Shown piece after piece: positions 5,734-64,000 of a DNA stretch of 64,000 nucleotides. The stretch's first letter is position 1, and every line of letters starts with the position of its first letter. The notes under the pieces are model-generated. The model did not search any database. It was not told where the DNA came from and was given only the letters and a program-made list of their open reading frames with translations. The stretch comes from Chloropicon primus (Eukaryota): positions 620,001-684,000 of the forward strand of contig CP060761.1 of the NCBI GenBank assembly GCA_023205875.1. The letters run 5' to 3'. Made by a program: the position numbers and the translations under genes.

Positions 5734-6396
5734 GGGGTCGTGTGACGCACCAATCGAAAGATCACGAGATGAAGCTTCCGCCTGGCGATCCTCTCTTTCA
5801 CTCCTTCCTCGTTCTCGTCGCTGAATTCCTCACTGATTGCGCTTGACTCCTCCCCTTCCCTCGCCAGGAATCAGCCAATCTCGTTCACAAGGCGAGTCAA
5901 TCCTTTGCCGATGCCGTCGACCAAGGTATCAATGGAAAGATCTCAAGAAGCACTTTCGTGTGGTGCCCTCGCCTTGCGCTTCCTCTCTCGTCCTCGTCGT
6001 CAACTCTCGTCACAAAAGTGTCGTTTCTCGTTTCGCCGCCGTGGGCTCCAAACTGGATAAGAAAAAGCGTCAAGCCAGAGCCTATCAATCAGAGGTTTGG
6101 GAGGAGTGGACCGCAATCAGCGAGGAGTTTCGCAACGAGGACGACCGAGGAAGCGCAAGGCGAGTTGATCATACGAAAGTGCTTCTTGAGATCTTTCCAT
6201 TGATACCTTGGTCGACGGCATCGGCAAAGGATTGACCCGCCGTGTGAACGATTGGCTGATTCCTGACGAGGGAAGGGGAGGACTCAAGCGCAAGCAGCGA
6301 GGCATTTGACGACGAGGACGGGGGAGGAGTGAAGAGCAAGGTCGCCAGGCAGAATCATCGTCTCGCGATCTTTCGATTGGTGCGTGACACGACCCC
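5734..6396. repeat. Long imperfect inverted repeat (foldback/MITE-like element), copy 1
   Basis: Left arm ~5734-5995 (ggggtcgtgtgacgcaccaatcgaaagatc..tttgccgatgccgtcgaccaaggtatcaatggaaagatctcaagaagcactttcgt) is mirrored by the right arm ~6140-6396. No TSD or transposase was seen. Confidence 0.88.
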
Positions 6397-7955: not shown

Positions 7956-8161
7956 TGCGTCCAGTCGGTCGACCAGCGGATCAATCCAAAGCTCTCGAGA
8001 AGACGTTTTGCGATGTGATGCACCTGAAGCCCCTACCCCCTCGCCCTCCCCGCCAACTTCCTTCCTCAGCCTTATCCTGTTCTGTTCCTCTCCCTCCACC
8101 AGTCACTGCACCAAAGTCTCCTCGATCTCGAGCACACCTCGGGTCGATCCGGTGCAGCCAA

Positions 8162-8821
8162 GGCACCAATCGAAAGCTCACGAGATGAAGATTCTGATTG
8201 ACGACCTTGCTCTTCGCCCCTCTCTCGTCCTCGTCGCTGAATTCCTCGCTGATTCCGCTGCACTCCTCCCCTTCCCTCGTCAGGAATCAACCAATCGTTC
8301 ACACGGCGGGTCACTCCTTTGCCGATGCCGTCGACCAAGGTATCAATGGAAAGATCTCGAGGCGCACTTTCGTATGATCAACTCGCCTTGCGCTTCTTCG
8401 GTCGTCCTCGTTGCGAAACTCCTCGCTGATTGCGGTCCACTCCTCCCAACCCGTGATCTCCTCCGAGGGACCCATTCTGGAGAGACCAGGACGAGAGGCG
8501 ATGGGAACAACAGGAACATCGCACCTTTGTCGAGGACAGTGGCGACGTCAGAGGAGAGGAAAGCGCAAGGCGAGGGCACCACACGAAAGTGCGCCTTGAG
8601 ATCTTTCCATTGATACCTTGGTCGACGGCATCGGCAAAGGAGTGACCCGCCGGAACGAGATTGGCTGATTCCTGACGAGGGAAGGGGAGGAGTGCAGCGC
8701 AATCAGCGAGGAATTCAGCGACGAGGACGGGGGAGGAGTGAAAGAGAGGATCGCCAGGCGGAAGCTTCATCTCACGGTCTTTCCATTGGTACCTTGGTCG
8801 AAGGCATCGTCAAAGGATTGA
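8162..8821. repeat. Foldback/MITE-like element, copy 2 (inverted relative to copy 1)
   Basis: Same arms as 5734-6396. The inner block tatgatcaactcgccttgcgc..ctcctcgctgattgcggtccactcctccca (8373-8448) is the reverse complement of ~6098-6173. Confidence 0.88.
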
Positions 8822-8855
8822 GTCGGATCGAGTCGAACAGCTTGTTGTTGTTGGG

Positions 8856-10607
8856 ATGGCGGTGGAGGGGGAGAAGGACTTTGTGGTGGATTACGTGGTG
8901 AGGGCGGAGACGGAGGAGGAGGCGAGGCAGCAGGCTGGGAAGATAGCGCACGAGCAGACGGTGGAGCTTCCTGAGGCATATGTCAGAGACACTTATCCAG
9001 AGATCTCGGAAACGGTGGTTGGCAAACTGGTGGGGCTTGAGAGGGTGAGCAACGAGGATCGGTTGTGGAGGCTGTCGATCGCCTACCACGAGGACACGAC
9101 CGGCTTCGAGCTCCCGCAGTTCCTCAACGTTGTGTTCGGCAACACGAGCATCAAGGCGAACGTGCAAGTGGAAGATATCAAGTTGAGTAAGGGGCTTGCT
9201 GATGCGTTCCCGGGTCCGAGGTTTGGGACCGAGGGCTTGCACAAGCTCGTTGGGGTTGCTTTGGGCGAGCCGCTCGTGATGACGGCGCTCAAGCCCATGG
9301 GCCTCTCTGTCGAGGCTCTCGCGCACCAGACGTACTGCTTCGCAAAGGGTGGGATCGATATCATCAAGGACGATCACGGGCTCTCGAACCAGTCGTGGGC
9401 GCCCTTCGAGGAGAGGGTGAAAGCCTGCGTGGCCGCAGTGAAGAAGGCGAACGCGGAGACCGGGAGGAACTCCCTGTACGCACCGACGCTGAGCGGTCCC
9501 ATCGACAAGCTCTTCAGGATGGCGAGGTTCGTGAAGGAAGCTGGCGCGGGAGCGGTGTTGATGCTGCCAGGCATCACAGGGTTCGACTCCATGAGGGCTC
9601 TTGCGGCGGATGACTCGTTCAATCTCCCGATACTGTGCCACCCGGCCCTTATGGGCTGCATGCTGGGAGGAAGCCTGACGCCGGGGAACCTTCACGGCTT
9701 TGCCTTCGACGTGGCTCTCTCGCTGATTCCTCAAATCAGCGGCGCGGACGCCACCATCTTCCCGAACGTCGGCGGGAGGTTCGGATTCACCTTGAAGGAG
9801 TGCCAGTCCATCGTGGAGAGGTGCAGGAGCACGGAGGGGCCGTACAAGCCCATCGCAGCGACGCCGGGCGGCGGAATGACGTTGGATCGAATTCCCGAAA
9901 TCTTGGAGATCCTTGGGAGGGACATCACCCTCCTCGTCGGCGGCAGCGTCTTCGCGAGATCCCCTGACCTCGAGGGCAACTCAAGGGCATTCGTTTCGTC
10001 CACCGGAAGGAAGATGGAGAACTTTTCTGTTTCCCTGTCCAGCAGCAACGGCCACGTTCCGTCTCAAGAGCAGCTGGAACAGATCAGGAAACTTAGGGCT
10101 TTGAAGTACCCCGCGGTCAAGGGGAACCACGGGAAGTTCCTCGAGTTCAAGAAAAACTTCTCGGGGAGTGGGGTGATGGGCGAGGATGACTCGAGCCACT
10201 GGTTGAACGTTGCCCTGGAGATGTACAAGCCCGAGGCTGGGAACAAGAGCTGGGGCGGAGTCACCAGAACCGAGCTGATCGGAAAAAGGGATGAATCAAC
10301 CAAGTTCCATGTCAGGTACTTTGAGGTGTCCCCGGGCGGGCACAGCTCCCTGGAGAAGCACGAGCACGAGCACGTGGTGATATGCATCAAGGGAGAGGGG
10401 AAGTGCACGGTGGGCCAGCGCGTTTGGGACATGTCTTTCGGTGACATTTGCTACACCTCGCCATGGGACGTCCACCAATTCTGGTGCCCCGAAGACAAGA
10501 AGGAAACCTTTGCTTTCTTCTGCATCGTCAATGCCGAGAGGGATAAGCCCGTTCTCGTGGATCCGACCGGACTGGAGCTGGCTGACATGCCGAGCAGCTG
10601 CGGATGA
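8856..10607 (+). CDS. RuBisCO-like protein (form IV, DeepYkr type) fused to a C-terminal cupin domain
   Basis: RLP motifs IAHEQTVE, QFLNVVFGNTS, FPGPRFG, ALKPMGLS, GGIDIIKDDHGL, FPNVGGRF, PGGGM and LLVGG (~8856-10010). Cupin WGGVTRTELIG..FHVRYFEVSPGGHSSLEKHEHEHVVICIKGEG..GDICY..HQF (~10190-10560). One intronless ORF of 583 aa. Confidence 0.92.
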   Translation: MAVEGEKDFVVDYVVRAETEEEARQQAGKIAHEQTVELPEAYVRDTYPEISETVVGKLVGLERVSNEDRLWRLSIAYHEDTTGFELPQFLNVVFGNTSIKANVQVEDIKLSKGLADAFPGPRFGTEGLHKLVGVALGEPLVMTALKPMGLSVEALAHQTYCFAKGGIDIIKDDHGLSNQSWAPFEERVKACVAAVKKANAETGRNSLYAPTLSGPIDKLFRMARFVKEAGAGAVLMLPGITGFDSMRALAADDSFNLPILCHPALMGCMLGGSLTPGNLHGFAFDVALSLIPQISGADATIFPNVGGRFGFTLKECQSIVERCRSTEGPYKPIAATPGGGMTLDRIPEILEILGRDITLLVGGSVFARSPDLEGNSRAFVSSTGRKMENFSVSLSSSNGHVPSQEQLEQIRKLRALKYPAVKGNHGKFLEFKKNFSGSGVMGEDDSSHWLNVALEMYKPEAGNKSWGGVTRTELIGKRDESTKFHVRYFEVSPGGHSSLEKHEHEHVVICIKGEGKCTVGQRVWDMSFGDICYTSPWDVHQFWCPEDKKETFAFFCIVNAERDKPVLVDPTGLELADMPSSCG

Positions 10608-10963
10608 GACCACGTGATGATATCCTATCGTATCAAAGTTATTAATAAACAAACACTTATCCAATTCTTGGAGTTTTTTTGGAAAGCGTTTGAGCGTTTG
10701 AAAATAATTCTCATTGGCCCCTCAAGGACAAGGGGGCCATCCAATCTCAGTAACGGACGTTCGAACAGGGGAGGGAGAAGGCGAAGGGAAGCGAAGAGGA
10801 GGACGGACGTTTGGTCGACGGAGGACGCGACAAGCGGAAGCACCGTCTCTTCCTCTTTCGTGAGAGCCCTCGCACGAAGGAAACGGCGGTCTGGCGAGGA
10901 TTTGAGGACGAGAAGAAGTGAGAGAACGTAACGCTCGAGGAGGAGAAAGTGAGACATAGTAGG

Positions 10964-13276
10964 ATGAAGGAGACGGAAGAGAACAAGAGGCAGAGGACGG
11001 AGGCCCCCCCAAAACACGCACTGGATGTGCTGCCAGAGGTTCTGTGGAACATCGTCGGCAAGCATGTGGCCGAGTACGACCGCCTCGCCTTTGGGTTGAC
11101 CTGCAAGACGTTCCTCGAGGCGGTGGCGGCGGTGAACCCTGACCTGAAGAAGGGTAACAAGGTTGTCCTGAAGACGGCCCTGGGACGCGTGTTGTTGTTC
11201 GAGGAGATGCCTTGCTTCAGCATGGGTTGGTTCCAGTGGGTGTTTCGCTCGTTCAAAAGGAAGAAGGGAGCGATCGCGATCGGTGGGAGGTGTGGACGGT
11301 ACTCCGACCACTTGTGCGACGCCGACCTGATGTTGCTCGCTGCTTTCCAGGGCAGCAAGGGGGTTCTGGAGTGGTTGGTGGTGAACCAAGGGATCCCTTT
11401 GAATATCAAGTATATGCATGGCGAAGAGGTAGCAGCTGGAGGTGCTGCTGCAGGAGGTCACATCGATGTGCTGGAATGGCTGAGGAGCGAGGGGTGCAAG
11501 TTCAATTGCTGGACCTGTTCTTATGCAGCTTTTGGAGGTCACCTTGGTGTTCTGCAGTGGCTTCGAAGTCAGGACTCGCCTTGTGATTGGGACGACAAGA
11601 CTTGTGATTATGCAGCTAAAGGAGGTCACCTTGATGTCCTGCAGTGGGCTCGAAGCCAGGATCCGCCTTGCCCTTGGAACGACAAGACTTGCTCAGTGGC
11701 AGCTTATGGAGGCCATCTCGAAGTTCTGCAGTGGCTTCGAAGCCAGGATCCGCCTTGCCCTTGGCACTGGGATACTTGTGATTATGCAGCTAAAGGAGGT
11801 CACCTTCATGTTCTGCAGTGGCTTCGAAGCCAGGATCCACCTTGCCCTTGTGACCAGTGGGCTTGTGCTCAAGCAGCTACACGAGGTCACCTTCATGTTC
11901 TGCAGTGGCTTCGAAGCCAGGACCCGCCTTGTGATTGGGACGAGAGGACTTGTGAAGGGGCAGCTATATATGGTCACCTTGATGTTCTCAAGTGGGCTCG
12001 AAGCCAGGACCCGCCTTGCCCTTGGGACGAGAAGACTTGTGTTAAGGCAGCTGAAGGAGGTCACATTGATGTTCTCAAGTGGGCTCGAAGCCAGGACCCG
12101 CCTTGCCCTTGGAACGAGATAATTTGTTGTTGGGCAGCTAAAGGAGGTCACCTTGATGTTCTCAAGTGGGCTCGAAGCCAGGATCCACCTTGCCCTTGGA
12201 ACGAGAGAACTTGTAAATATGCAGCTAAAGCAGGTCACCTCGAAATTCTGCAGTGGGCTCGAAGCCAAAACCCGCCTTGCCCTTGGAACGAGAAGGTTTG
12301 TGAGGTTGCAGCTAAATATGATCACCTCGAAATTCTGAAGTGGCTTCGAAGTCAGGACCCGCCTTGCCCTTGGAACCTGTGGACTTTTTCTCGTGCAGCT
12401 AAAGCAGGTCACCTGCATGTTCTGCAGTGGGTCCGAGGCCAGGATCCGCCTTGGCCTTGGGACATGTGGACTTGTTGCGGTGCAGCTGAAGGAGGCCATC
12501 TTCATATCCTGCAGTGGGCTCGAAGTCAGAATCCACCTTGTGATTGGAACGAGAACACTTGTACTGAGGCAGCTCGAGGAGGTCACCTCTATGTTCTGCA
12601 GTGGCTTCGAATCCAGGATCCGCCTTGCCCTTGGAACGAGGAGACTTGTTCTAAGGCAGCTTATGAAGGTCACCTCCACGTTCTGCAGTGGGCTCGAAGT
12701 GAGGACCCGCCTTGCCCGTGGGACATCTGGACTTGTGCTGGTGCAGCTAGAGGGGGTCATCTTCATATTCTGCAGTGGGTTCGAAGCCAGAATCCACCTT
12801 GCCCTTGGGACGAGTACACTTGTCTTTGTGCAGCTGAAGGAGGTCACCTTGATGTCCTCAAGTGGGCTCGAAGCCAGGACCCGCCTTGCCCTTGGAACGA
12901 GGGGGCTTGTGAATATGCAGCTAAAGGAGGTCACCTTGATGTTCTGCAGTGGGCTCGAAGCCAGGATCCGCCTTGCCCTTGGAACGAGGGGACTTGTTTT
13001 GAGGCAGCTAAATATGGTCACCTTGATGTCCTGCAGTGGGTTCGAAGCCAAAACCCGCCTTGCCCTTGGAACGAGGGAGCTTGTCTTGTCGCAGCTCAAT
13101 GTGGTCGTTTCCACGTTATACAGTGGCTTCTTCGTCAGGATCCGCCTTGCCCTTGGGACCCAGTTGCTTGCAGAGCTGCAGCAGAGCAGAATGGCTACCA
13201 GGACGTCGTCGCGGAGATCGATACATTCCTTGGAGTGAGGTTGATCGAAGAAATGTTCGCCGTCCAGGGATGGTAA
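10964..13276 (+). CDS. Ankyrin-like tandem-repeat protein (29-aa 'PCPW' repeats) with N-terminal F-box-like motif
   Basis: ATG at 10964. LDVLPEVLWNIVGKHVAEYDRLAFGLTCKTF is F-box-like. It is followed by 20 units of GHLxVLxWxRSQDPPCPWxxxTCxxAAxx. Confidence 0.88.
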   Translation: MKETEENKRQRTEAPPKHALDVLPEVLWNIVGKHVAEYDRLAFGLTCKTFLEAVAAVNPDLKKGNKVVLKTALGRVLLFEEMPCFSMGWFQWVFRSFKRKKGAIAIGGRCGRYSDHLCDADLMLLAAFQGSKGVLEWLVVNQGIPLNIKYMHGEEVAAGGAAAGGHIDVLEWLRSEGCKFNCWTCSYAAFGGHLGVLQWLRSQDSPCDWDDKTCDYAAKGGHLDVLQWARSQDPPCPWNDKTCSVAAYGGHLEVLQWLRSQDPPCPWHWDTCDYAAKGGHLHVLQWLRSQDPPCPCDQWACAQAATRGHLHVLQWLRSQDPPCDWDERTCEGAAIYGHLDVLKWARSQDPPCPWDEKTCVKAAEGGHIDVLKWARSQDPPCPWNEIICCWAAKGGHLDVLKWARSQDPPCPWNERTCKYAAKAGHLEILQWARSQNPPCPWNEKVCEVAAKYDHLEILKWLRSQDPPCPWNLWTFSRAAKAGHLHVLQWVRGQDPPWPWDMWTCCGAAEGGHLHILQWARSQNPPCDWNENTCTEAARGGHLYVLQWLRIQDPPCPWNEETCSKAAYEGHLHVLQWARSEDPPCPWDIWTCAGAARGGHLHILQWVRSQNPPCPWDEYTCLCAAEGGHLDVLKWARSQDPPCPWNEGACEYAAKGGHLDVLQWARSQDPPCPWNEGTCFEAAKYGHLDVLQWVRSQNPPCPWNEGACLVAAQCGRFHVIQWLLRQDPPCPWDPVACRAAAEQNGYQDVVAEIDTFLGVRLIEEMFAVQGW
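11453..13190 (+). repeat. Coding tandem array of 87-bp units (19 x 29 aa plus one 27-aa unit)
   Basis: The unit ggtcacctt..ctgcagtgggctcgaagccaggatccgccttgcccttgg..acttgt(N6)gcagct(N6) recurs every 87 nt. Confidence 0.95.
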
Positions 13277-25170: not shown

Positions 25171-26105
25171 CGTGGTGGTGGTGGTGGCGGTGTCACCTCA
25201 TGGCAAGCCACAAGACGACGGCAAGGCGGTCGTCCGCATTCATTCCAATGCAATGCAGTCGATCCACATGCAGACACACAAACTCACACACACGTTCAGT
25301 TCAGTTTCGTGTTATGTTATGTGATGTGTTGTCCAACCTCAAGAGAAGAGAGGAAGGAAGAGAGGAAGGAAGAGAGGATGCTTTCCCGATGTCCTTGATC
25401 CGATGTCTCCTTGCTCCTTGCTCCTTGCTCCTTCTCTCTGGTGTTGTCTCTGTCTGTGTCTCTCTGTCTCTCTGACTCTGGTGTGGTGTGGATCCAAGAT
25501 ATATATACTCTATATCTAAAATCGCTTGATAATGATAACCAAAGGTGGCGTCTTGGAGGACGAAGAGAGACACAAACACAAACACAGAGAGAGAGAGAGG
25601 GAGAGGGAGGGAGAGAGGGAGAGGGAGGCTCCCTTGGTCCCTTGTCGTGGGCAAGGAACACAATGGGGCAGCCTTGAGAGGCACGGAGGAGGAGAATGCG
25701 AGGAAGGTGCAGACTTTGGAGAGAGGCCCTTGGAGTCGTTCAGTTCCCCATTCCACAGGATTCCTGGAAACATTTCCGAAATTAAATTCTAATTCCAATG
25801 TGGACGTTCTTTACTCTACTATGACTTCACATTTGAAATCATCTCAACATTTCCACCCAGCGGAATCAGTGGCTCGCGTGATCTGTCGCCGCCGGACTTC
25901 TAGAATCTGCGTATTAGATCGGCGCCCCAAGGTAAGGAGAAAGTTTTGGTTTGGTTTGGTCCGTCAACGCGTGACGACGACGACGACAACGGTGAGGGAG
26001 GTGTCGAACGAAGAGTTCGTGAGGTGTCGACCTTTCCGACGACCCTTCGCACGCCTCGAACGCCGCTCGGGTCGACGAGCACCGCCCCATTTCCCATTTC
26101 CCATT

Positions 26106-26139
<34 letters not shown>

Positions 26140-26219
26140 TGACTTTGGAATCTTCTTCGCATTGTTTTTCAGCATTAGACGAGAGAGAGAGAGAAGACGA
26201 GAGAGAGAGAGAGAACATC

Positions 26220-27398
26220 ATGGCGGAGGAGACCAGCTTTCTATTCACATCCGAGTCCGTGAACGAGGGACACCCGGACAAGCTCGCGGATCAAGTATCG
26301 GACGCCGTGCTTGACGCATGCTTGGAGCAGGACCCGGAGGCCAAGGTCGCGTGCGAGACCGCGACGAAGACGGGGATGATCATGATCTTCGGCGAGATCA
26401 CGACCAAGGCCAAGGTGGATTACGAGGCTGTGGTGCGCAAGGCCGCGAGGGACATTGGGTTCACGCACGAGGACGTGGGCCTGAACTGCGACACCATGAA
26501 GGTGATCGTGAACATCGAGGAGCAGAGCCCGGATATCGGCCAGGGCGTGCACGGCATGGGAACCAAGACCCTCGAGGAGCTCGGTGCGGGAGACCAGGGC
26601 CACATGTTCGGGTATGCCACCGACGAGACCCCTGAGCTCATGCCCCTGACCCACGTCCTCGCGACCAAGATTGGGTACGAGCTGACCAAGGTCAGGAAGA
26701 ACGGCACGTGCGCCTGGCTCAGGCCCGACGGAAAGACCCAGGTCACCGTCGAGTACGAGAAGAAGGGAGGCTTCCTGACCCCGAAGAGGGTCCACACCAT
26801 CCTGATCTCCACCCAGCACACCCCAGACGTCACGAACGACAAGATCGCCGCGGACTTGATGGAGCACGTCATCAAGCCAGTCGTCCCCGCCAAGTACTTG
26901 GACGACAAGACGATCTTCCACCTGAACCCCTCCGGGAGGTTCTGCATCGGGGGCCCCCACGGAGACGCCGGCTTGACCGGAAGGAAGATCATCATCGACA
27001 CCTACGGGGGTTGGGGAGCCCACGGAGGCGGAGCCTTCAGCGGGAAGGACCCCACCAAGGTCGACAGGTCCGCGGCCTACCTCGCCAGGCAGGTCGCCAA
27101 GTCCGTCGTCGCGGCAGGCTTGGCCGCCAGGTGCATCTTCCAAGTCTCTTACGCCATCGGCGTCCCTGAGCCCCTGTCCATCTTCGTCGACACTTACGGC
27201 ACCGGCAAGGTCCCGGACTCTGAGATCTTGGACAGGGTCAAGAAGGCCTTTGACTTCAGGCCAGGCCTGATCGCCAAGAACCTCGACTTGATGAGGGCCA
27301 CCACCGAGGGGGAGGGCAGGTACAGGAAGTCCGCGGCCTACGGCCACTTTGGCAGGGACGACGCCGACTTCACCTGGGAGAAGGTCGTGCCGCTCTAA
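26220..27398 (+). CDS. METK: S-adenosylmethionine synthetase (392 aa)
   Basis: [41 protein letters not shown] and YGHFGR motifs. ATG at 26220. TGTAA directly after the stop. Confidence 0.98.
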
Positions 27399-55022: not shown

Positions 55023-58000
55023 TCACTTGCGGGTCTTCAAGAAAGACTTGATCACGATGCGAAGCGTTCTCGTCCTGTTGCTGAGCCTTGCCATCCTGCT
55101 GATGCTGGACTGGTTGATTCCCAGGGCCTCAGCCAGAATTTCCTGCGCCCTCTCTGGAAGGGACGTCAGCGTCTCTATGGACAGGACTTGGTCGGCCGCC
55201 TTGAGCTCTCCAACGAGCTCCACGACGAGCTTCTTGTCGATCGTTCCCAGGAACTCCTGCAGGATGTCCTGGTCCTCCTGACTCACGTCTCCCTCAGCCA
55301 TCCTCGCTCTCAGCCACCGAAGAGCTTCCTCGCTCTCGTAGTCGAGCTCCTCGTCCACAGTCTCGCTCGTGGATTCTCCGCTCGAACTGGCTTCTGGTCT
55401 CCCGTTTCCATTGGCGTGGGCTGCCATCTTTTTCATCCATTTTGGTTGTGCCACCGGAATGCACCCCAAAACAGTTGTCTTTCCTCCACCACCATCTCCG
55501 GAGACGTCACCCCCGTTCTGCGCCGGGATGCACCCCAGGATCGTTGACTTGGGCGCCTGGTCTTCCCCTGCTGGAGCTGGTGCTGGCCTCAGCAAGAGCT
55601 TTTTCTTCTTTCCATACTTTCCTTTCCCGTTCTTTCCGGGCAAGAAAGCGCGGAGCCTGTCTTGGAGAATGCCACCCTCGTTGTGGTGCCACTCCACAAA
55701 TGTCTTGAAAACCGTTCTCCAGAAAGGCAGGTTTTCGAATTTGGCCGAAGGAAGCATGGTGAAGTGGTCTCCCGGAACATCCACAATCTGGAAATTGTTG
55801 CAATGCTCGTGCCATCCAATGACGTGATGGAAGTCGATGTTAAACAGATCATCAACTAGTGGTAGTCCACCTCTCACCATGGGGCGGAAGTAGAGCAGTG
55901 TCCCCCTCTCCAGTTTCGATGTCACGTTGTATTCCTGTGGTCTCAGAGCCCCAAAGTTCCACCAAGACTCCATATACTCGATGCTCTCGTGGAAAAGATC
56001 CTTTCCAAAATCTCTACCAATGATTGCGGAATAGATTTCCAAGAATTCTTCCATTCGCTGGTCCGGTGTCATATCCGGCCACGTCTTTGAAAACCTGGGC
56101 CACATGTAGTGCCTTTGTAGTACTCGCTGCATCACAAACTCGGCTTTCTCCTCAAATGGAAGCTGGGCACATGCACCAAAGTCCCGTAACTGCACAGGAT
56201 GTAAGCCGTCCATCAGAACCAACTTCTCCACGAAATAAGACTGCTGCTCCAATTTGACAGCCAAGTCATATGCTACTATTGCCCCAGCGGACCAGCCCAT
56301 GATAATGAAAGGTCCCTGCAGCTTCATAGACAGTACCTGGAACAGATACTCAGCTGCTAACTGTGCTACAGGCTTGTCAGTGCTGCCTGACAGAGTGTAA
56401 ACGCCTCTTGAAGTCCATGTCATAAATGACCTGATTTGCACAACATCCTCCTCTGAAAGACCAGGAGATATCAACAAAACAATTGGCGTGGATTCACTGA
56501 GCATGCTGTCCGACTGATAGGAAGACGCCGCCACATTCTGAATTCTGGGGACATGCTTTTGTACTGCCTTCTCTTTCACAAATTGATCATGTATGCCAAC
56601 AAGATGATCCGCTACGAGGTGAATTGATTTCAGTTTTGCTGCAATTGTGTTGATGAAGAAATGGTCTCCATCCATTTTGAATATCTTGTACACATGTGAA
56701 GTGTAATGTTGCCAACTGAGAACGTCGTTGTACCCAAGCGTAGTATCAGATTCGCCATAGAGGCACATAATTGGCATCGGCAATGGCTTCTTGTTTTTAG
56801 GTCTGTAACTCAGACACAATTTGCTATCACACAGAATGCCAGGCATGATGAAGTTGTATAAGTCATCGCTCTGGCGGAGCTTGTCGATTCCTGAAAAGAC
56901 GCTAGTCTTTTCCAATACATCTAGTACAGTGTCTTTCGGAAGCTCATCCATGTACTCCATCAGCTCTGCGATACTGGAATCAAAATCATATGAAAGATTT
57001 GTAATTCCTCTCAGATCACCTTCATCTTTACTCGCAAACATCCTTTGCACAAAGAATGGGAATACATGTGGTGCAGGACAAGCAGCTGGGAACAACGCCA
57101 TGATGTTATCTAGTTTCTCAGTTTCTCCATGGTCAACCAGCCACACTATGGTTTCGTACATAATTATGGCACCTGTTGAGAGAGCAAAGAAAGCACAAGG
57201 CTTGTCAAATGCCAAATTTGTCGCCAAATTTTCAGCTATGCTGTGAACATCAGAAGAAGCACTTTCGTGGAATCTCCTCCCATGACCAGGAAGCTCAATT
57301 GGACAAATCTGAATGCTAGCAGGTAGGTACAAAGACCATTCTGCAAATATTTGCTCACTCACTCCTCCTGCATATGCTAAACAGTACAGTCTCATTGTAG
57401 CATCCACATTGCTAGGAATGAAAAGAACTTCCTCTTTAACATCCTCTTCAATGTCAACACTCTCAATAGTCTTGATTTCACCACTAATATAAGAAGAAAC
57501 CGCATTGATGTTTGGATAATCAAACACCAAAGTAGTGGGCAATTCCACACCCATGCTCTGTTGAACCGTGTTATGAAGCTCCACAGCTCCTAAGGAGTCC
57601 AAACCTGCATCCAAGAGCGGCTCATCCCCACCAACTTCACGGCCGAGAACGTCTCCAACAACACCTGTGAGGTAAGTTTCAATCTGGGACGTGCGCTCGT
57701 TTTCTGAAAGCTTTGCAAGCTGTGCAGCAAAGCCAGTCTGACCTGAAACAGATTTGCTACCATCAGCTTCAAGCGCATCTCTTTCTACTTCACTGAAGAA
57801 AGCAGGAACAGAAGGCATCAATTTCAGGAAGCGGCCCCATGAGATTGGTGCTGCCGCTACCAAAGGCAAAGACATGCCAGCACTGACACTATCATTGGCG
57901 GATCGCAAGATACTTCCCAAAACACACAAACCTTCAACTGACGTCAAAGATTGCATGCCAACACGTTCCAGTCTCGAGGACGTAGAGGAAGACTGCAGAG

Positions 58001-61000
58001 CCATTCCTCCACCAGACCATGCTCCCCACTGAATGCTGGTGGCACAGCCTCCCTGAGACTCCATGGCGCTGGACCACGTGTCCAAGTAGGCATTGGCTGC
58101 ACTGTAGTTGGATTGACCCGCTGAGCCTAGCAACGACGCTATGGAAGAGAACAACAGTTGAGAGGAAACACTGTGACCCCAAGAGCGCGCATGCAAATGA
58201 TGCAAGGCATCCACCTTGGGTGCAAAGACAGTGCGTACACTCTGCATGCTCTGAGATCCCAAAAGCATATCAGACAGCAAGCCTCCAGCATGCATCACTT
58301 GAGCCAAAGGCATGTCAAGGCCTGGCCACGACAAAGCACTGCTGCACTCCTCCTGGGAGCCTGCATCGCATCTAATGGCACAGAACACTGCACTGCTCGA
58401 TGGATCTTGCAAACTCAACAAGGCAGACTTGGATTTGTCCATGTCAACAGGCAACCTGTAATGACCAGAACGTCCGGCAAGCCTGAGATCAGGGGTCATG
58501 TGTTGGGCAGCCCACTGACCCATAAGGGATCCAAGGGCACCCAAACCACCTGTCACAAAAGAGCAACCAGACTCCTGCATACTCAACAGGCTTGTGGTGC
58601 CAAGACCCTGGCTCACAACAACCTTGCCAACATGCTTAGCACCAGCCAGCCAACGGAGGGCAGCTTGAACGCCGTTCAGTGTATGAGAAGTACTTCTCAG
58701 CCCTGACACGGCACCCTCTGCAATACCACCAGCAAGACGGCACAGTGCCTGGTGTGTCCTGGCAGGAGGCAAGAAGTCCACCGCCAAAAGACTGTAAACC
58801 ACATCAGGACGCTCCCGGTGTACACCAGATGGACTCCAAATGTCGCGCTTACCAATCTCCACCAACTGACCACCAAGGTGCAAGCAAGATAAACTTGCTC
58901 CGACCATACCTGATGATGTCAGCGAGTTGAGAATCAAGCCCATGCCTTCCACCTGTCCATTGTAAGCCGTTTGTCCCAAATCAGCATACCTGGTCGATCG
59001 CGAACTCACAACATGTTGTACGCCCATAGATCTCAGCAAGTGCCTCTTCAAACTGCTACCTGCTGTGGCCCACATCTCGCCACCAAGGGCATGAACCACT
59101 TGACAAGCAGCCAGGCCTATGCCTCCCGCAGCGGCATGCACCAGTACAGCCTGACCTGCATTGCTTGGAAGAGATGCTGCATGGCACATGGCAACATCTA
59201 CGGTCATGAACACAGTGACCATGGTGCATGCCTCCACAAAACTAGCGGCCTTGGGAATAGGCACAACAAGCTGATGCAGAGTGTATGCGTGCGATCCCAG
59301 ACAACCAGGTGCCAAACCTGCCACCCGGATGCCAACCTGCAATGCATCTGGAGCATCATGCAGATGACGGGTGTCCCACACATCACTCACGATACCAGAC
59401 ATGTCACTTCCTGGAGGACCAGGATCTCCTGGATAAGCTCCAAGAACATTCAAGACGTCCCTGAAATTTAGACCAACAGCCATTACCTGAAGGAATACCA
59501 TGCCCTCCCCTCCCGCGTCAGAATCCAGCTTGTGTGCAGCCAAACTACTCAAAGAGCCCCTTGGGCTGGGTACAAGCTGAGAATAAGACAAAGAGGAAGA
59601 CACTCTACCATGCAGCAAACGAGACTGGAGCCAAGTGTTTTGCCTGATAGCAGCTTCCAGGTCGTGCAATGACGTTGTCAGGCTCTGTGCAGACACATCA
59701 CTTGGAGCATACATATCAAGATCCACATCATGCATTGCTTGACGTGGGCGCTCCTGAGCCAATGTACGCATCAAACCCAGCATACTTCCGAATGACCAGT
59801 TGCTGAGGGACGAGGAGCTGCTTGACCAAGCCGCAGGCAAGCATCCCAAAACAAGAGCAACAAGCTTGCTCGCGCCTGTTACACTTTCAGGAAGCTGTTG
59901 CAGTAAAGCCATTACTGCTTGAGTCACCAGCATACTGGCATTCACGCCAAGGCCAGGATGTACTTCAAAAGCAATCTCACTCTGGTCCTGCTCCAACAAA
60001 ATGGTGAAGCGAGAAAGATCATGTCCTTGCAACGAAGAAGAAGATGGCAAAACAACACTATCACATTGCCAAGAAACCTCGTACAGGAGGTCCTTCTTTT
60101 CTGTGACAGCCTGGGCCCTACCCACTGGACGGGCACCCATCTGCCTTGCCTCCAACTCACTCAGAACGGCAACAGGGGCACCGCTCTTCCTCTGGAGCAC
60201 GTGATTTGTGATCACAGACTGTGAACCAGAAGGTGGTGCCACGGACTCTGCCAAAGCATACATATGCAAGTCATGCGTCTTCTGTGGCACACTGAAAGCT
60301 CCAAAGCCGGCAGGCACATAAGCTCCTCCAGACATACCGGATGACTCCGCAGAGTCACTTCCAACGTGCATCACGGCAGCCAGCTGCAAGCAGCCATCTA
60401 AGGCAGCAGGGTGAACCATCATACCTGACTCATCGTGATCACCTGGAAGGTGCTCAGGGATACTCTTCATGCATCCTTGAGCAGCCCTACCTGTCTTCAC
60501 ACGCACATTCCATGCACCACTGAACTGGGGACCGTACTGAAGGCCCGCCAAAGCCAAACCTTGGCGCACTTGTGACCAATCCAGTGGTCCTTGGCAGAGA
60601 CTGCGGGTACAATCTATAGAAACGTTTGTGTCCGTAACAGCATCTGCGCTGACGATCTCACTGACAAGCCGAGAAGCTAGAGAACGCATGTGTACGCTGC
60701 CTCCGCTCGGGCCTGACATGCTGGATGAAGAGCCTATCTGAAGCTCGCCCGTCAAACACCAAATCTTGCTTTCCAAGTACAGAGGAGCACTTGTTGAGTC
60801 ATCTGTTGGCGAGACTGGCAGCATCAGAGGTGCAGCGATGGATGCCTGCACTGCAGCTCCAGGCAACGACCCTTGATGAGCCACCGCAACCAACGCACAG
60901 GCTGTCTCCATGAAGCCAGCTCCAGGGAAGAGCACACGGCCCATCACCCTGTGATCCCAAATCCATTGCAGACTTGGACGCATCAGTTGGCTGTATGTGC

Positions 61001-64000
61001 ACACATGAATGTCGTCGTGCAGAACGGGAACAGCGGCCAGAACCAAAGGATGGGAAACAGGTCCCACCCAGAAGCGCTGATTCTGCCAGTGCTGGCCCAC
61101 CCAACTTGAGAGCACTCCTACATTCATCATGGTGTGTCGCACCAAAGCATGAGCATTGGTTCCTTGGAACGCAAATGCACTCACACCAGAGGCATGTGTA
61201 GACTCACTCCAAGTCAAACCATTTTGCTCACGGCACAAATGACCCATGCGAGCTCCTTGCGCAGATTGAGATCCTCCCAAAATACGCGTCAGATGAGGGT
61301 TAATGTGACGCAAATGAAGCACAGGAGATGTTGTTCTATGGCATGTGCCATGAATAGCATGGATCAGGCCAACAGCTCCAGCAGCAGGCTCAGTGTGACC
61401 CACGTAGGTCTTGCCCGCCTGAACACTGAGAGGCGCAGTTCCCTCCAAATCAGCACTTCTGGATTGCAAAAGCACCGCGTGGGCTGCACCAATCTCAATA
61501 GGGTCTCCGAGCGGAGTACCCGTACCATGCATGTTAAGGATAGCCACAGAGGAGCTTGCCAAAGAAGCCCTCTGCATTGCACTGGATATAACCTTTTGTT
61601 GTGCAGGGCCGTTTGGTGCAGTCAAGGCAGATGAGCGACCATCTTGGTTCACAGCAGATCCTGCAAAGCACACCACATGGCCTCCTGTCTCAGCAGACTT
61701 GCCTTCTGCGTCAAGCAACAAAACACCACAAGCTTCTCCACGCACATATCCATCGGCATCTGCATCGAGGGTCTTGCACCTGCCATCAATGGCCAACATA
61801 CCAGCCTGCTTGAACACAACACCAGTATCAGGAGCCAAGGTCAGGTTCACACCACATGCAAGTGCCATAATGCACTCCCCAAGCAACAGACTGTCACATG
61901 CCACATGAGATCCTACTAAAGAAGAGGAGCAGGCAGTATCTGTGCTGATTGCAGGACCTTGTAAACCGTATGCATACGAAACACGACCTGCAGCAACACT
62001 CAATGCGTTACCTGTTCCTGCATAAGGACTCACATCAGTCAGGTAATGCGACATGACCTTACTGTAGTCCATGCTCGAAATTCCAACAAAAACACCCACT
62101 AAGGACGACCTTGTAGGCATTGGTGTCAAAGCTTCCCAAGCACTTTGCAGGAGAAGTCTCTGTTGAGGGTCCATAAGCATTGCTTCGCCTTGAGACATGC
62201 GTAGACATTCTGAGTCAAACATCTCAACTTGGCATATCAATGCACCGAAGTATGCCCCCATAGGACCAGCACGCCATGCAATAGATTCTGCATCTGCACG
62301 CTCATACACTGCACTGCAATCCAAACCACACGTCTCCTCAAGGGTACGCATCTTTCCTGGAGCACGACTAGACACCGATGACACATATATCAACATGTCC
62401 TCGGAGATCTTGCCACCGGGAATGCCTTGCGCAACGGTCTGCTCTTCCATTTCATACACAGCGTCTTCAGGAGCCAGTGTCTCGCTGATGAACCCTGCGA
62501 CTGCATTGATGTTTGGATAATCAAACACCAAAGTAGTGGGCAATTCCACACCCATGCTCTGTTGAACCGTGTTATGAAGCTCCACAGCTCCTAAGGAGTC
62601 CAAACCTGCATCCAAGAGCGGCTCATCCCCACCAACTTCACGGCCGAGAACGTCTCCAACAACACCTGTGAGGTAAGTTTCAATCTGGGACGTGCGCTCG
62701 TTTTCTGAAAGCTTTGCAAGCTGTGCAGCAAAGCCAGTCTGACCTGAAACAGATTTACTACCATCAGTTTCAAGCGCATCTCTTTCTACTTCACTGAAGA
62801 AAGCAGGAACAGAAGGCATCAATTTCAGGAAGCGGCCCCATGAGATTGGTGCTGCCGCTACCAAAGGCAAAGACATGCCAGCACTGACACTATCATTGGC
62901 GGATCGCAAGATACTTCCCAAAACACACAAACCTTCAACTGACGTCAAAGATTGCATGCCAACACGTTCCAGTCTCGAGGACGTAGAGGAAGACTGCAGA
63001 GCCATTCCTCCACCAGACCATGCTCCCCACTGAATGCTGGTGGCACAGCCTCCCTGAGACTCCATGGCGCTGGACCACGTGTCCAAGTAGGCATTGGCTG
63101 CACTGTAGTTGGATTGACCCGCTGAGCCTAGCAACGACGCTATGGAAGAGAACAACAGTTGAGAGGAAACACTGTGACCCCAAGAGCGCGCATGCAAATG
63201 ATGCAAGGCATCCACCTTGGGTGCAAAGACAGTGCGTACACTCTGCATGCTCTGAGATCCCAAAAGCATATCAGACAGCAAGCCTCCAGCATGCATCACT
63301 TGAGCCAAAGGCATGTCAAGGCCTGGCCACGACAAAGCACTGCTGCACTCCTCCTGGGAGCCTGCATCGCATCTAATGGCACAGAACACTGCACTGCTCG
63401 ATGGATCTTGCAAACTCAACAAGGCAGACTTGGATTTGTCCATGTCAACAGGCAACCTGTAATGACCAGAACGTCCGGCAAGCCTGAGATCAGGGGTCAT
63501 GTGTTGGGCAGCCCACTGACCCATAAGGGATCCAAGGGCACCCAAACCACCTGTCACAAAAGAGCAACCAGACTCCTGCATACTCAACAGACTTGTGGTG
63601 CCAAGACCCTGGCTCACAACAACCTTGCCAACATGCTTAGCACCAGCCAGCCAACGGAGGGCAGCTTGAACGCCGTTCAGTGTATGAGAAGTACTTCTCA
63701 GCCCTGACACGGCACCCTCTGCAATACCACCAGCAAGACGGCACAGTGCCTGGTGTGTCCTGGCAGGAGGCAAGAAGTCCACCGCCAAAAGACTGTAAAC
63801 CACATCAGGACGCTCCCGGTGTACACCAGATGGACTCCAAATGTCGCGCTTACCAATCTCCACCAACTGACCACCAAGGTGCAAGCAAGATAAACTTGCT
63901 CCGACCATACCTGATGATGTCAGCGAGTTGAGAATCAAGCCCATGCCTTCCACCTGTCCATTGTAAGCCGTTTGTCCCAAATCAGCATACCTGGTCGATC
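55023..64000 (-). CDS. Modular type I polyketide synthase, 3' part: (ER)-KR-ACP / KS-DH-ER-KR-ACP / TE-TE; 5' end lies outside the window
   Basis: KS MDPQQR, DTACSSS, HGTGT and GHTEPAAG. DH HRVMGRVLFP. ER LVHAAAGGIG. KR GGLGALG and NYSAAN. ACP GLDSLG twice. TE-like ALSTG..GDHFF and GWSAG..GDHFT. No AT motif (GHSxG). Confidence 0.96.
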   Translation of the reverse strand, partial: STRYADLGQTAYNGQVEGMGLILNSLTSSGMVGASLSCLHLGGQLVEIGKRDIWSPSGVHRERPDVVYSLLAVDFLPPARTHQALCRLAGGIAEGAVSGLRSTSHTLNGVQAALRWLAGAKHVGKVVVSQGLGTTSLLSMQESGCSFVTGGLGALGSLMGQWAAQHMTPDLRLAGRSGHYRLPVDMDKSKSALLSLQDPSSSAVFCAIRCDAGSQEECSSALSWPGLDMPLAQVMHAGGLLSDMLLGSQSMQSVRTVFAPKVDALHHLHARSWGHSVSSQLLFSSIASLLGSAGQSNYSAANAYLDTWSSAMESQGGCATSIQWGAWSGGGMALQSSSTSSRLERVGMQSLTSVEGLCVLGSILRSANDSVSAGMSLPLVAAAPISWGRFLKLMPSVPAFFSEVERDALETDGSKSVSGQTGFAAQLAKLSENERTSQIETYLTGVVGDVLGREVGGDEPLLDAGLDSLGAVELHNTVQQSMGVELPTTLVFDYPNINAVAGFISETLAPEDAVYEMEEQTVAQGIPGGKISEDMLIYVSSVSSRAPGKMRTLEETCGLDCSAVYERADAESIAWRAGPMGAYFGALICQVEMFDSECLRMSQGEAMLMDPQQRLLLQSAWEALTPMPTRSSLVGVFVGISSMDYSKVMSHYLTDVSPYAGTGNALSVAAGRVSYAYGLQGPAISTDTACSSSLVGSHVACDSLLLGECIMALACGVNLTLAPDTGVVFKQAGMLAIDGRCKTLDADADGYVRGEACGVLLLDAEGKSAETGGHVVCFAGSAVNQDGRSSALTAPNGPAQQKVISSAMQRASLASSSVAILNMHGTGTPLGDPIEIGAAHAVLLQSRSADLEGTAPLSVQAGKTYVGHTEPAAGAVGLIHAIHGTCHRTTSPVLHLRHINPHLTRILGGSQSAQGARMGHLCREQNGLTWSESTHASGVSAFAFQGTNAHALVRHTMMNVGVLSSWVGQHWQNQRFWVGPVSHPLVLAAVPVLHDDIHVCTYSQLMRPSLQWIWDHRVMGRVLFPGAGFMETACALVAVAHQGSLPGAAVQASIAAPLMLPVSPTDDSTSAPLYLESKIWCLTGELQIGSSSSMSGPSGGSVHMRSLASRLVSEIVSADAVTDTNVSIDCTRSLCQGPLDWSQVRQGLALAGLQYGPQFSGAWNVRVKTGRAAQGCMKSIPEHLPGDHDESGMMVHPAALDGCLQLAAVMHVGSDSAESSGMSGGAYVPAGFGAFSVPQKTHDLHMYALAESVAPPSGSQSVITNHVLQRKSGAPVAVLSELEARQMGARPVGRAQAVTEKKDLLYEVSWQCDSVVLPSSSSLQGHDLSRFTILLEQDQSEIAFEVHPGLGVNASMLVTQAVMALLQQLPESVTGASKLVALVLGCLPAAWSSSSSSLSNWSFGSMLGLMRTLAQERPRQAMHDVDLDMYAPSDVSAQSLTTSLHDLEAAIRQNTWLQSRLLHGRVSSSLSYSQLVPSPRGSLSSLAAHKLDSDAGGEGMVFLQVMAVGLNFRDVLNVLGAYPGDPGPPGSDMSGIVSDVWDTRHLHDAPDALQVGIRVAGLAPGCLGSHAYTLHQLVVPIPKAASFVEACTMVTVFMTVDVAMCHAASLPSNAGQAVLVHAAAGGIGLAACQVVHALGGEMWATAGSSLKRHLLRSMGVQHVVSSRSTRYADLGQTAYNGQVEGMGLILNSLTSSGMVGASLSCLHLGGQLVEIGKRDIWSPSGVHRERPDVVYSLLAVDFLPPARTHQALCRLAGGIAEGAVSGLRSTSHTLNGVQAALRWLAGAKHVGKVVVSQGLGTTSLLSMQESGCSFVTGGLGALGSLMGQWAAQHMTPDLRLAGRSGHYRLPVDMDKSKSALLSLQDPSSSAVFCAIRCDAGSQEECSSALSWPGLDMPLAQVMHAGGLLSDMLLGSQSMQSVRTVFAPKVDALHHLHARSWGHSVSSQLLFSSIASLLGSAGQSNYSAANAYLDTWSSAMESQGGCATSIQWGAWSGGGMALQSSSTSSRLERVGMQSLTSVEGLCVLGSILRSANDSVSAGMSLPLVAAAPISWGRFLKLMPSVPAFFSEVERDALEADGSKSVSGQTGFAAQLAKLSENERTSQIETYLTGVVGDVLGREVGGDEPLLDAGLDSLGAVELHNTVQQSMGVELPTTLVFDYPNINAVSSYISGEIKTIESVDIEEDVKEEVLFIPSNVDATMRLYCLAYAGGVSEQIFAEWSLYLPASIQICPIELPGHGRRFHESASSDVHSIAENLATNLAFDKPCAFFALSTGAIIMYETIVWLVDHGETEKLDNIMALFPAACPAPHVFPFFVQRMFASKDEGDLRGITNLSYDFDSSIAELMEYMDELPKDTVLDVLEKTSVFSGIDKLRQSDDLYNFIMPGILCDSKLCLSYRPKNKKPLPMPIMCLYGESDTTLGYNDVLSWQHYTSHVYKIFKMDGDHFFINTIAAKLKSIHLVADHLVGIHDQFVKEKAVQKHVPRIQNVAASSYQSDSMLSESTPIVLLISPGLSEEDVVQIRSFMTWTSRGVYTLSGSTDKPVAQLAAEYLFQVLSMKLQGPFIIMGWSAGAIVAYDLAVKLEQQSYFVEKLVLMDGLHPVQLRDFGACAQLPFEEKAEFVMQRVLQRHYMWPRFSKTWPDMTPDQRMEEFLEIYSAIIGRDFGKDLFHESIEYMESWWNFGALRPQEYNVTSKLERGTLLYFRPMVRGGLPLVDDLFNIDFHHVIGWHEHCNNFQIVDVPGDHFTMLPSAKFENLPFWRTVFKTFVEWHHNEGGILQDRLRAFLPGKNGKGKYGKKKKLLLRPAPAPAGEDQAPKSTILGCIPAQNGGDVSGDGGGGKTTVLGCIPVAQPKWMKKMAAHANGNGRPEASSSGESTSETVDEELDYESEEALRWLRARMAEGDVSQEDQDILQEFLGTIDKKLVVELVGELKAADQVLSIETLTSLPERAQEILAEALGINQSSISRMARLSNRTRTLRIVIKSFLKTRK
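57502..64000. repeat. Near-identical PKS module duplication with 5001-bp offset (57502-58999 vs 62503-64000)
   Basis: The two stretches align at a constant offset of 5001 with only a few substitutions seen. Alternative-frame track ORFs recur at the same offset (57590/62591, 58019/63020, 58679/63680). Confidence 0.95.

What the first reader, a model, noticed from the sequence alone, without database searches (positions are those of the whole stretch)
8856..10607. RuBisCO-like protein fused to a methylsulfurylase-type cupin: a possible one-gene MTA-isoprenoid shunt in an alga
Seen: a single intronless ORF joins a form IV RLP (KDDHGL at ~9366-9383, in place of RuBisCO KDDE) to a cupin with RYFEVSPGGHSSLEKHEHEH. 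No obvious transit peptide. Known: in the Rhodospirillum rubrum MTA-isoprenoid shunt, a DeepYkr-type RLP isomerises 5-methylthioribulose-1-phosphate to methylthioxylulose-5-phosphate, and a separate cupin methylsulfurylase releases methanethiol plus 1-deoxy-D-xylulose-5-phosphate (DXP). Eukaryotic RLPs are rare (one is known in Ostreococcus), and green algae make isoprenoids through DXP/MEP. Inference: a bifunctional enzyme of bacterial origin that salvages MTA sulfur, emits methanethiol and supplies DXP independently of DXS. I cannot tell whether this fusion is already reported.
Basis: partly seen in the sequence, partly recalled or inferred. Interest (0 to 1): 0.9.

Follow-up and report, generated by a model that had tools for sequence, protein, structure and literature searches.

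The report
Algal one-gene methylthio-sugar salvage shunt
This algal nuclear gene joins a non-carbon-fixing RuBisCO relative to a small metal-binding cupin domain, and it likely carries out in one protein a two-step, oxygen-free recycling route so far characterised only in bacteria, which would give several common marine algae their own source of methanethiol.

Summary
Confirmed: one 583-codon ORF (8856-10607) fuses a KDDH-type RuBisCO-like protein (RLP) to a cupin. The best solved relatives are the R. palustris RLP 3qfw and the R. rubrum methylsulfurylase Rru_A2000; four cupin histidines and the active-site-position cysteine are kept. [quoted passage not shown] It is not a one-off: 39 of 120 top homologues carry both domains, including Ostreococcus lucimarinus, Bathycoccus and Euglena proteins, and bacterial fusions exist. 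The algal RLPs form one clade whose nearest bacterial relatives mostly sit beside a transketolase-like pair rather than a cupin; diatoms fuse the same RLP to that enzyme. The fusions carry an extra tail cysteine, a predicted methylthio relay, absent from R. rubrum-type cupins. Published tables list MtnK-MtnA but no MtnB/C for Ostreococcus and Micromonas. Supply of plastid isoprenoids is doubtful: no transit peptide. This alga's other pathway genes and expression were untestable. Ten literature searches found no report of the fusion, but the primary papers were not read. The scan noted the bacterial RLP-transketolase module earlier on other DNA, not this fusion.

The parts
8856..10607 (+). Whole fusion gene, 583 aa, one uninterrupted reading frame
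   Evidence: the same 583-aa sequence is held by NCBI, UniRef and EukProt
8871..10010 (+). RuBisCO-like (form IV, KDDH-type) domain, residues about 6-385; likely methylthioribulose-1-phosphate 1,3-isomerase
   Evidence: best PDB match 3qfw, 217 bits, against 161 for the best MtnW; Foldseek rank 1 is 3qfw, TM-score 0.92 by target length
9366..9377 (+). KDDH motif (K171-H174) in place of RuBisCO/MtnW KDDE
   Evidence: H in 6 of 6 cupin-linked alphaproteobacterial RLPs, E in 3 of 3 MtnW-like rows
10011..10130 (+). Flexible linker, residues about 386-425
   Evidence: pLDDT below 50 at 389-403 and 413-425; variable in length and sequence among fusions
10131..10553 (+). Cupin domain, residues about 426-566; likely methylthioxylulose-5-phosphate methylsulfurylase
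   Evidence: best PDB match 3jzv Rru_A2000, 86.6 bits, against 28.7 for the next family; Foldseek rank 1 is 3jzv, 41% identity, rmsd 2.0
10359..10373 (+). HEHEH: predicted metal ligands H502, H504, H506 (fourth ligand H540 at 10473-10475)
   Evidence: all four invariant in 54 of 54 aligned cupins
10521..10523 (+). Cys556, aligned with the Rru_A2000 cysteine in FLCMVNAERDKP; predicted methylthio-accepting nucleophile
   Evidence: invariant in 54 of 54 and in 37 of 37 fusions with the motif; catalytic role recalled from Warlick et al. 2012, not read
10590..10604 (+). C-terminal PSSCG tail with Cys582 (10599-10601); predicted mobile second thiol
   Evidence: tail Cys motif in 32 of 37 fusions and 0 of 16 alphaproteobacterial cupins; low pLDDT

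Best explanation
The gene encodes a two-domain, likely cytosolic enzyme that likely performs both distinctive steps of the bacterial MTA-isoprenoid shunt in an alga. Shown: the fusion, the family assignment of each domain, and conservation of active-site positions. [quoted passage not shown] More speculative: the flexible tail Cys582 picks the CH3S group off Cys556 and hands it to glutathione or a thioredoxin, after which methanethiol is either recaptured into methionine or lost as gas. The likely purpose is oxygen-independent clearance of MTA and sulfur salvage in place of the MtnB/C/D route; use of the DXP for plastid isoprenoids would need an importer and is the least supported step (about 0.3).
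For: RLP domain: best solved match is the R. palustris RLP 3qfw by sequence and fold; a cupin-linked alphaproteobacterial RLP scores 410 bits against the same entry, tying 3qfw to the shunt type. At 21 of 23 positions inspected, the window has the same commonest residue as the 6 cupin-linked alphaproteobacterial RLPs (differences: M148 for Q, G338 for A), and it differs from the 3 MtnW-like rows at KDDH/KDDE and GGRF. Cupin domain: the top three PDB matches are the R. rubrum, R. palustris and H. halophila cupins; PMC4334135 and PMC4958253 (passages) name Rru_A2000 as the methylsulfurylase; 3 of 120 cupin homologues carry the source name 'S-methyl-1-thioxylulose 5-phosphate methylthiotransferase'. 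Context: mtnA in 19 and mtnK in 12 of 80 bacterial loci around close RLP relatives; RLP directly upstream of the cupin in 16 of 16 alphaproteobacterial loci; both Elusimicrobiota genomes with the cupin (2 of 201) also hold a related RLP, against 8 of 201 with any RLP match. Algae: PMC2759508 (section 7) reports an MtnA-MtnK fusion in Ostreococcus tauri, two Micromonas and Phaeodactylum; PMC4192683 (Table 1 passage) lists the MtnB/C enzyme DEP1 for Chlamydomonas, Volvox, Coccomyxa and Dunaliella but for none of 4 prasinophytes, a group that carries this fusion.
Against: No assay, expression data or genome was available for this organism, so its MtnK/P, MtnA, MtnB/C/D and sulfhydrylase genes are unknown. 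The nearest bacterial RLPs mostly pair with a transketolase-like enzyme (53 of 80 loci) and seldom with a cupin (4 of 80); none of this sub-clade is known to me to have been assayed. The nearest stand-alone cupins lie beside an RLP in only 3 of 80 metagenome loci, one of them an algal fusion, and beside mtnA, mtnK or metY in none. Identity to the characterised-type proteins is modest (32% RLP, 41% cupin by structure). DEP1 is also unlisted for Chlorella and Asterochloris in PMC4192683, so 'unlisted' is not 'absent'. PMC6302742 (section 12) warns that such enzymes are often paralogues adapted to different thiols and that methanethiol is often lost rather than salvaged.
Confidence: 0.72

Rival explanations
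1. The main substrate is 5'-deoxyadenosine from radical-SAM enzymes: the RLP would turn 5-deoxyribulose-1-phosphate straight into DXP, with the cupin needed only for occasional MTA.
For: PMC4958253 (passage) says the R. rubrum MTA phosphorylase also acts on 5'-deoxyadenosine. That the R. rubrum RLP accepts the deoxy sugar is recalled, not read. Cupin-less paralogues of the same RLP exist in the same algae: O. lucimarinus has both XP_001419378.1 (fused) and XP_001418678.1 (no cupin).
Against: The cupin cysteine is kept in 37 of 37 fusions, which argues for regular sulfur chemistry. This reading adds to the best explanation more than it replaces it.
Confidence: 0.1
2. The RLP isomerises the expected sugar, but the tail-bearing cupin transfers the CH3S group to a specific protein or small-molecule acceptor, so free methanethiol and methionine salvage are minor outcomes.
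For: 80 of 120 stand-alone cupin homologues end in CxxC plus one residue and 22 more have an N-terminal Cys motif, unlike the R. rubrum type (0 of 16); 77 of 80 loci of such cupins show no RLP nearby.
Against: Where genomes could be searched, the tailed or fused cupin came with an RLP (2 of 2); L150 and L109 have RLP and tailed cupin adjacent; a bacterial locus has cupin, O-acetylhomoserine sulfhydrylase and RLP together (L074).
Confidence: 0.12
3. The protein is an MtnW-type enolase of the canonical oxygen-dependent salvage route, or its cupin is a DMSP-lyase-like enzyme.
For: The best NCBIfam match of the RLP is the MtnW model; DddK appears among distant cupin matches.
Against: 209 bits against a cut-off of 409; MtnW-like rows form a separate branch at 100/100 and have KDDE; DddK scores 39 bits against 155 for Rru_A2000.
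Confidence: 0.04
4. The ORF is bacterial contamination or an assembly chimera.
For: The gene has no intron and both domains are of bacterial type.
Against: Host-like GC3 in both halves; eukaryotic neighbours; an independent 2,095-base record gives a protein identical over 581 residues; a relative at about 80% identity has a 109-nt GT-AG intron in the RLP domain (L155); the same fusion occurs in named algal genomes.
Confidence: 0.01

Closest known systems
MTA-isoprenoid shunt of Rhodospirillum rubrum (Rru_A1998 RLP + Rru_A2000 cupin) and Rhodopseudomonas palustris (RPA2169 + RPA2170)
   Same: Same two families; KDDH and GGRF motifs; four cupin histidines and the FxCxVN cysteine; best matches by sequence and fold.
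   Different: One polypeptide instead of two genes; eukaryotic nucleus; RLP and cupin both fall outside the alphaproteobacterial clades in my trees (AU test not significant); extra tail cysteine, absent in 16 of 16 alphaproteobacterial cupins.
Ostreococcus/Micromonas/Bathycoccus RLP-cupin proteins (XP_001419378.1, CAL6347283.1; cluster of XP_002508354.1) and Euglena gracilis EG_transcript_5818
   Same: Same domain order and motifs, 49-53% identity in the RLP and 44-55% in the cupin; one clade.
   Different: Longer linkers and one or two SACE(W) tail motifs in the Mamiellales proteins; in the records I saw they are named only 'predicted protein' or RuBisCO-like, with no function given.
Bacterial RLP plus transketolase-like module (mtnK-mtnA-TK(N)-TK(C)-RLP) and the diatom RLP-transketolase fusions
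   Same: Nearest RLP relatives; diatom RLPs lie inside the same eukaryotic clade and their fused enzyme is 43-55% identical to the bacterial partner.
   Different: A thiamine-diphosphate enzyme takes the place of the cupin; its reaction is untested.
MtnW (YkrW-type RLP enolase) of the Bacillus methionine salvage pathway
   Same: Form IV RuBisCO-like fold and a methylthio-sugar phosphate substrate.
   Different: KDDE motif, separate branch, score far below the family cut-off, oxygen-dependent downstream step, no cupin sulfurylase.
Tetrahymena MtnBD and MtnAK fusions (PMC2759508)
   Same: Eukaryotic fusion of consecutive salvage enzymes.
   Different: Canonical dioxygenase pathway, unrelated domains.

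Membership tests
DeepYkr-type RLP (MTRu-1P 1,3-isomerase) | RuBisCO large-subunit fold lacking the carboxylase residue set | tested here: met
   Model matches 3qfw at TM-score 0.92; M148, H174 and P263 stand where RuBisCO has K177, E204 and R295 (RuBisCO numbering recalled)
DeepYkr-type RLP (MTRu-1P 1,3-isomerase) | KDDH and PNxGGRF motifs shared with the cupin-linked RLPs, unlike MtnW | tested here: met
   H and GGRF in 6 of 6 cupin-linked alphaproteobacterial rows and the window; E and other residues in 3 of 3 MtnW-like rows
DeepYkr-type RLP (MTRu-1P 1,3-isomerase) | Groups with the R. palustris RLP1 type to the exclusion of MtnW | tested here: met
   61 rows against 3 MtnW-like rows at 100/100; 3qfw-like stand-ins were used because the R. 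rubrum and R. palustris sequences themselves were not in the tree; other RLP clades were not sampled
DeepYkr-type RLP (MTRu-1P 1,3-isomerase) | Sister to the cupin-linked alphaproteobacterial sub-clade | tested here: inconclusive
   Best tree places it with transketolase-linked RLPs (99/93); AU test of the alternative p = 0.072
DeepYkr-type RLP (MTRu-1P 1,3-isomerase) | Isomerises MTRu-1P to MTXu-5P | not testable with these tools
   needs an enzyme assay
MTXu-5P methylsulfurylase (Rru_A2000 family cupin) | Cupin fold closest to Rru_A2000 among solved structures | tested here: met
MTXu-5P methylsulfurylase (Rru_A2000 family cupin) | Four-histidine metal site and the FxCxVN cysteine | tested here: met
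   H502, H504, H506, H540, C556 invariant in 54 of 54; their roles are recalled, not read
MTXu-5P methylsulfurylase (Rru_A2000 family cupin) | Thiol-dependent release of DXP and a methylthio group | not testable with these tools
   needs an enzyme assay
MTA-isoprenoid shunt (whole pathway) | Upstream MtnP or MtnN/MtnK and MtnA, and downstream O-acetylhomoserine sulfhydrylase, in the same organism | not testable with these tools
   No genome held; none among the 25 window ORFs scanned with Pfam. MtnAK is reported for related prasinophytes (PMC2759508)
MTA-isoprenoid shunt (whole pathway) | DXP enters the MEP pathway | tested here: inconclusive
   No N-terminal extension, so the product would arise outside the plastid; transport untested
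MtnW (YkrW) enolase | Reaches the NF007095/TIGR03332 cut-off and keeps KDDE | tested here: not met
   209 of 409 and 154 of 514 bits; KDDH
True RuBisCO (forms I-III) | KDDE motif and full carboxylase active site | tested here: not met

The most novel reading that the evidence does not exclude
A single early transfer gave marine algae a RuBisCO-like isomerase that now anchors an oxygen-independent SAM by-product pathway across picoprasinophytes, Euglena and diatoms, with two interchangeable fused endings: a cupin with a swinging tail cysteine that makes methanethiol and DXP, and an uncharacterised transketolase-like enzyme in diatoms. In prasinophytes it has replaced the canonical MtnB/C/D route, which makes abundant phytoplankton a direct, DMSP-independent source of marine methanethiol.
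Probability: 0.3. Interest if true: 0.85.

Novelty: new variant of a known kind. Interest (0 to 1): 0.62.

Why it matters
The MTA-isoprenoid shunt is described in the papers I could read as a bacterial pathway, and eukaryotes are said to use the oxygen-dependent route (PMC5893883, PMC4958253, passages). If the fusion is active, widespread eukaryotic phytoplankton recycle MTA by a different chemistry and may emit methanethiol themselves, a gas usually credited to bacterial DMSP breakdown (established knowledge). It is directly testable in Ostreococcus or Euglena and by complementing existing R. rubrum and R. palustris mutants. The diatom RLP-transketolase fusion ties the untested thiamine enzyme physically to the RLP, and the tail cysteine offers a concrete answer to how the methylthio group leaves the cupin, a step that PMC6302742 calls still under investigation. 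A one-gene, DXS-independent DXP source would also interest terpenoid engineers.

Tried and rejected
No whole genome is held for the window, so the organism's other salvage genes could not be searched, and no transcript evidence was obtained. Viral contigs: 9 pattern matches, none a relative. A whole-genome search of 5 bacteria with transketolase-linked RLPs found no convincing cupin (1 of 5 had a weak match with an internal stop). The cupin tree (62 rows, 165 columns) is poorly resolved: no starred group holds the window protein, so a single origin of the eukaryotic fusions is not shown; bacterial fusions (P0075, P0120, L179) branch apart in both trees, which suggests repeated fusion. The RLP tree used LG+G4 without a mixture model, its bootstrap had not settled (0.983), 64 of 227 extracted RLP domains went in (223 plus 4 diatom proteins), and I labelled the unnamed 'eukaryotic' rows after seeing the first tree; bacterial rows were chosen by similarity to the query, from 21 of 64 parts of the collection. 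My notebook entry that the two Elusimicrobiota RLPs are KDDH-type was wrong: they have Q there. The Atlas search with a cupin-less paralogue gave no useful taxa. MtnW, true RuBisCO, DMSP lyase and contamination were considered and rejected (see rivals). No complex prediction was run, since I do not claim that the domains bind. Literature: 10 searches found no paper on an algal RLP-cupin or RLP-transketolase fusion; Erb 2012, Warlick 2012, Imker 2008 and Tabita 2007 were not read (seen only as citations), and they or their supplements may mention the Ostreococcus protein and its fusion. No supplements were opened.

Full report
Observation. The window holds one open frame at 8856-10607 (+) of 583 aa, with a RuBisCO large-chain domain and a Cupin_2 domain. 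KDDH begins at nt 9366 and HEHEH at nt 10359. An AlphaFold model from 13 aligned fusions gives a confident RLP domain, a disordered linker at about 389-425, a cupin barrel and a low-confidence tail (mean pLDDT 83, pTM 0.65). The upstream frame is closed and has no Met. GC3 is 0.81 and 0.80 in the two halves, like flanking genes, and the neighbours are eukaryotic nuclear genes. A metagenomic relative at about 80% identity has a 109-nt GT-AG intron inside the RLP domain (L155). The gene is real and nuclear. Its place among green-algal, euglenid and diatom proteins suggests an alga; I did not establish the species.

The RLP domain. Among solved structures the best match is 3qfw, titled as an RLP of Rhodopseudomonas palustris (217 bits; best MtnW 161; the Photo-type RLP2 90). 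That 3qfw is the shunt-type RLP1 is supported by a cupin-linked alphaproteobacterial RLP scoring 410 bits against it. The window scores 209 against a cut-off of 409 for MtnW. At 23 positions inspected it agrees with the commonest residue of six cupin-linked alphaproteobacterial RLPs at 21, and differs from three MtnW-like proteins at KDDH and GGRF.

The cupin domain. The best matches are Rru_A2000 (3jzv), and the R. palustris and H. halophila cupins, with a large gap to other cupins by sequence (86.6 against 28.7 bits; 155 against 49 with a profile) and rank 1 by fold (41% identity, rmsd 2.0). Rru_A2000 is the methylsulfurylase according to PMC4334135 and PMC4958253 (passages), and PMC5893883 (passages) shows by deletion that RLP1 and the cupin act together in R. 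palustris. H502, H504, H506, H540 and C556 are invariant in 54 of 54 aligned cupins. That an active-site cysteine takes the methylthio group is recalled from Warlick et al. 2012; PMC4334135 shows that glutathione receives it in vivo.

Distribution. Of the 120 best homologues listed (2,547 found), 39 match both domains, one of them identical to the window's protein. Named members or cluster-mates are Euglena gracilis, Ostreococcus lucimarinus XP_001419378.1, Bathycoccus prasinos and a partial Micromonas commoda record. The Atlas lists two mainly bacterial RLP-cupin clusters (53 and 81 members) and a chlorophyte one (73); a 532-aa fused frame occurs in an Elusimicrobiota genome. So the fusion is a family, held in public databases without a functional name in the records I saw. 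O. lucimarinus also has a cupin-less paralogue with six copies of an N-terminal repeat. All 12 longer homologues found (1,043-1,363 aa) carry transketolase domains after the RLP; 4 carry diatom species names and a fifth a diatom-type gene id.

Origin and context. In a 64-row tree the 21 rows I class as eukaryotic form one clade (100/98), nested among bacterial RLPs (99/93) and apart from the cupin-linked alphaproteobacterial clade. An AU test did not reject grouping them with that clade (p = 0.072), so the donor is not settled; the caveats on sampling and labelling are under Tried and rejected. Around 80 close bacterial RLPs, 53 loci have a transketolase-like gene or pair, 19 mtnA, 12 mtnK, 4 O-acetylhomoserine sulfhydrylase and 4 a cupin (representatives confirmed; many loci are short). 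This supports MTRu-1P as substrate and shows two alternative partners. The diatom transketolase part is 43-55% identical to the bacterial partner. By contrast 16 of 401 alphaproteobacterial genomes have the cupin, each with an RLP directly upstream. The stand-alone cupins nearest the window's are near an RLP in only 3 of 80 metagenome loci, though both Elusimicrobiota genomes with such a cupin hold a related RLP. The cupin tree is unresolved.

The tail cysteine. The protein ends in PSSCG. A Cys motif follows the cupin in 32 of 37 fusions (many are related prasinophyte proteins, so not independent), 80 of 120 stand-alone homologues end in CxxC plus one residue, 5 have another tail Cys motif, 22 have an N-terminal one, 10 none and 3 are truncated; 0 of 16 alphaproteobacterial cupins have a tail Cys, while the H. 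halophila cupin has one. A mobile thiol beside an enzyme that forms a methyl disulfide is most simply a relay to glutathione or thioredoxin. This is inference; metal binding by CxxC is an alternative for the bacterial forms.

Pathway fit in algae. PMC2759508 (passage and section 7) reports MtnA-MtnK fusions in Ostreococcus tauri, two Micromonas and Phaeodactylum. PMC4192683 (passages with Table 1) lists the MtnB/C enzyme DEP1 for four core chlorophytes and for none of four prasinophytes, but also not for Chlorella or Asterochloris. This fits replacement of the canonical route but does not prove it, and it concerns relatives rather than this organism. With no transit peptide the DXP would form outside the plastid, so the isoprenoid link is open. 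PMC10663253 (passages) treats the shunt in bacteria only.

Prior report. Ten searches of the open library found no description of the fusion or of a eukaryotic shunt. PMC4017328 and PMC4938576 (passages) were irrelevant. The scan's earlier notes hold no look-alike of this sequence but describe the bacterial RLP-transketolase module several times, which I had already seen.

Verdict. Interest 0.62.

Noticed in passing
P0336-P0347 (diatom proteins, e.g. Thalassiosira profunda ACHAXT_005888, Skeletonema marinoi): The same RLP is fused to a full transketolase/DXS-like enzyme (1,043-1,363 aa) that is 43-55% identical to the partner in bacterial mtnK-mtnA-TK-RLP operons; two RLP-cupin fusions (P0033, P0037) fall in the same branch. 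Deserves its own study.
   Followed up: partly
P0040-P0064, P0106, P0432 (O. lucimarinus XP_001418678.1): Cupin-less RLP paralogues with 1-7 copies of an N-terminal F-x-x-M-F-x-x-S-P-x-x-L repeat; one copy also lies in the linker of Bathycoccus-type fusions. It may be a docking or scaffolding motif; unexplained.
   Followed up: partly
window 8151-8840 and 5749-6383: A roughly 650-690 nt non-coding element with nested inverted repeats fills the gap directly upstream of the gene; an inverted copy at 84.5% identity fills the next divergent intergenic gap, and there is no further copy in the window. MITE-like element or shared bidirectional promoter.
   Followed up: partly
P0068 (Tetraselmis striata), P0065, P0008: Algal RLPs with KDDD for KDDH; P0068 and P0065 also lose the conserved Asn and alter GGRF and lack a cupin, which suggests a changed or lost activity.
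   Followed up: no
P0013, P0014, P0018: Fusions with two cupins; the second has Trp in place of the conserved cysteine but ends in a Cys tail.
   Followed up: no
P0297, P0305, P0308: Stand-alone cupins of this family, two from eukaryotic transcriptome sources, with a hydrophobic N-terminal segment and an SACE tail; possibly membrane-anchored.
   Followed up: no
window 25821-27395 (+): S-adenosylmethionine synthetase gene 15 kb downstream; probably coincidence.
   Followed up: no
window 55026-63944 (-): Large type I polyketide synthase frame (KR, ACP, KS, DH, ER, TE domains), at least 2,973 aa, GC3 0.50 against about 0.8 for most genes, probably cut by the window end.
   Followed up: no
window 10949-13276 (+): Ankyrin-like repeat protein with many SQ(D/N)PPC(P/D)W units and low GC3 (0.52), directly downstream.
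   Followed up: no
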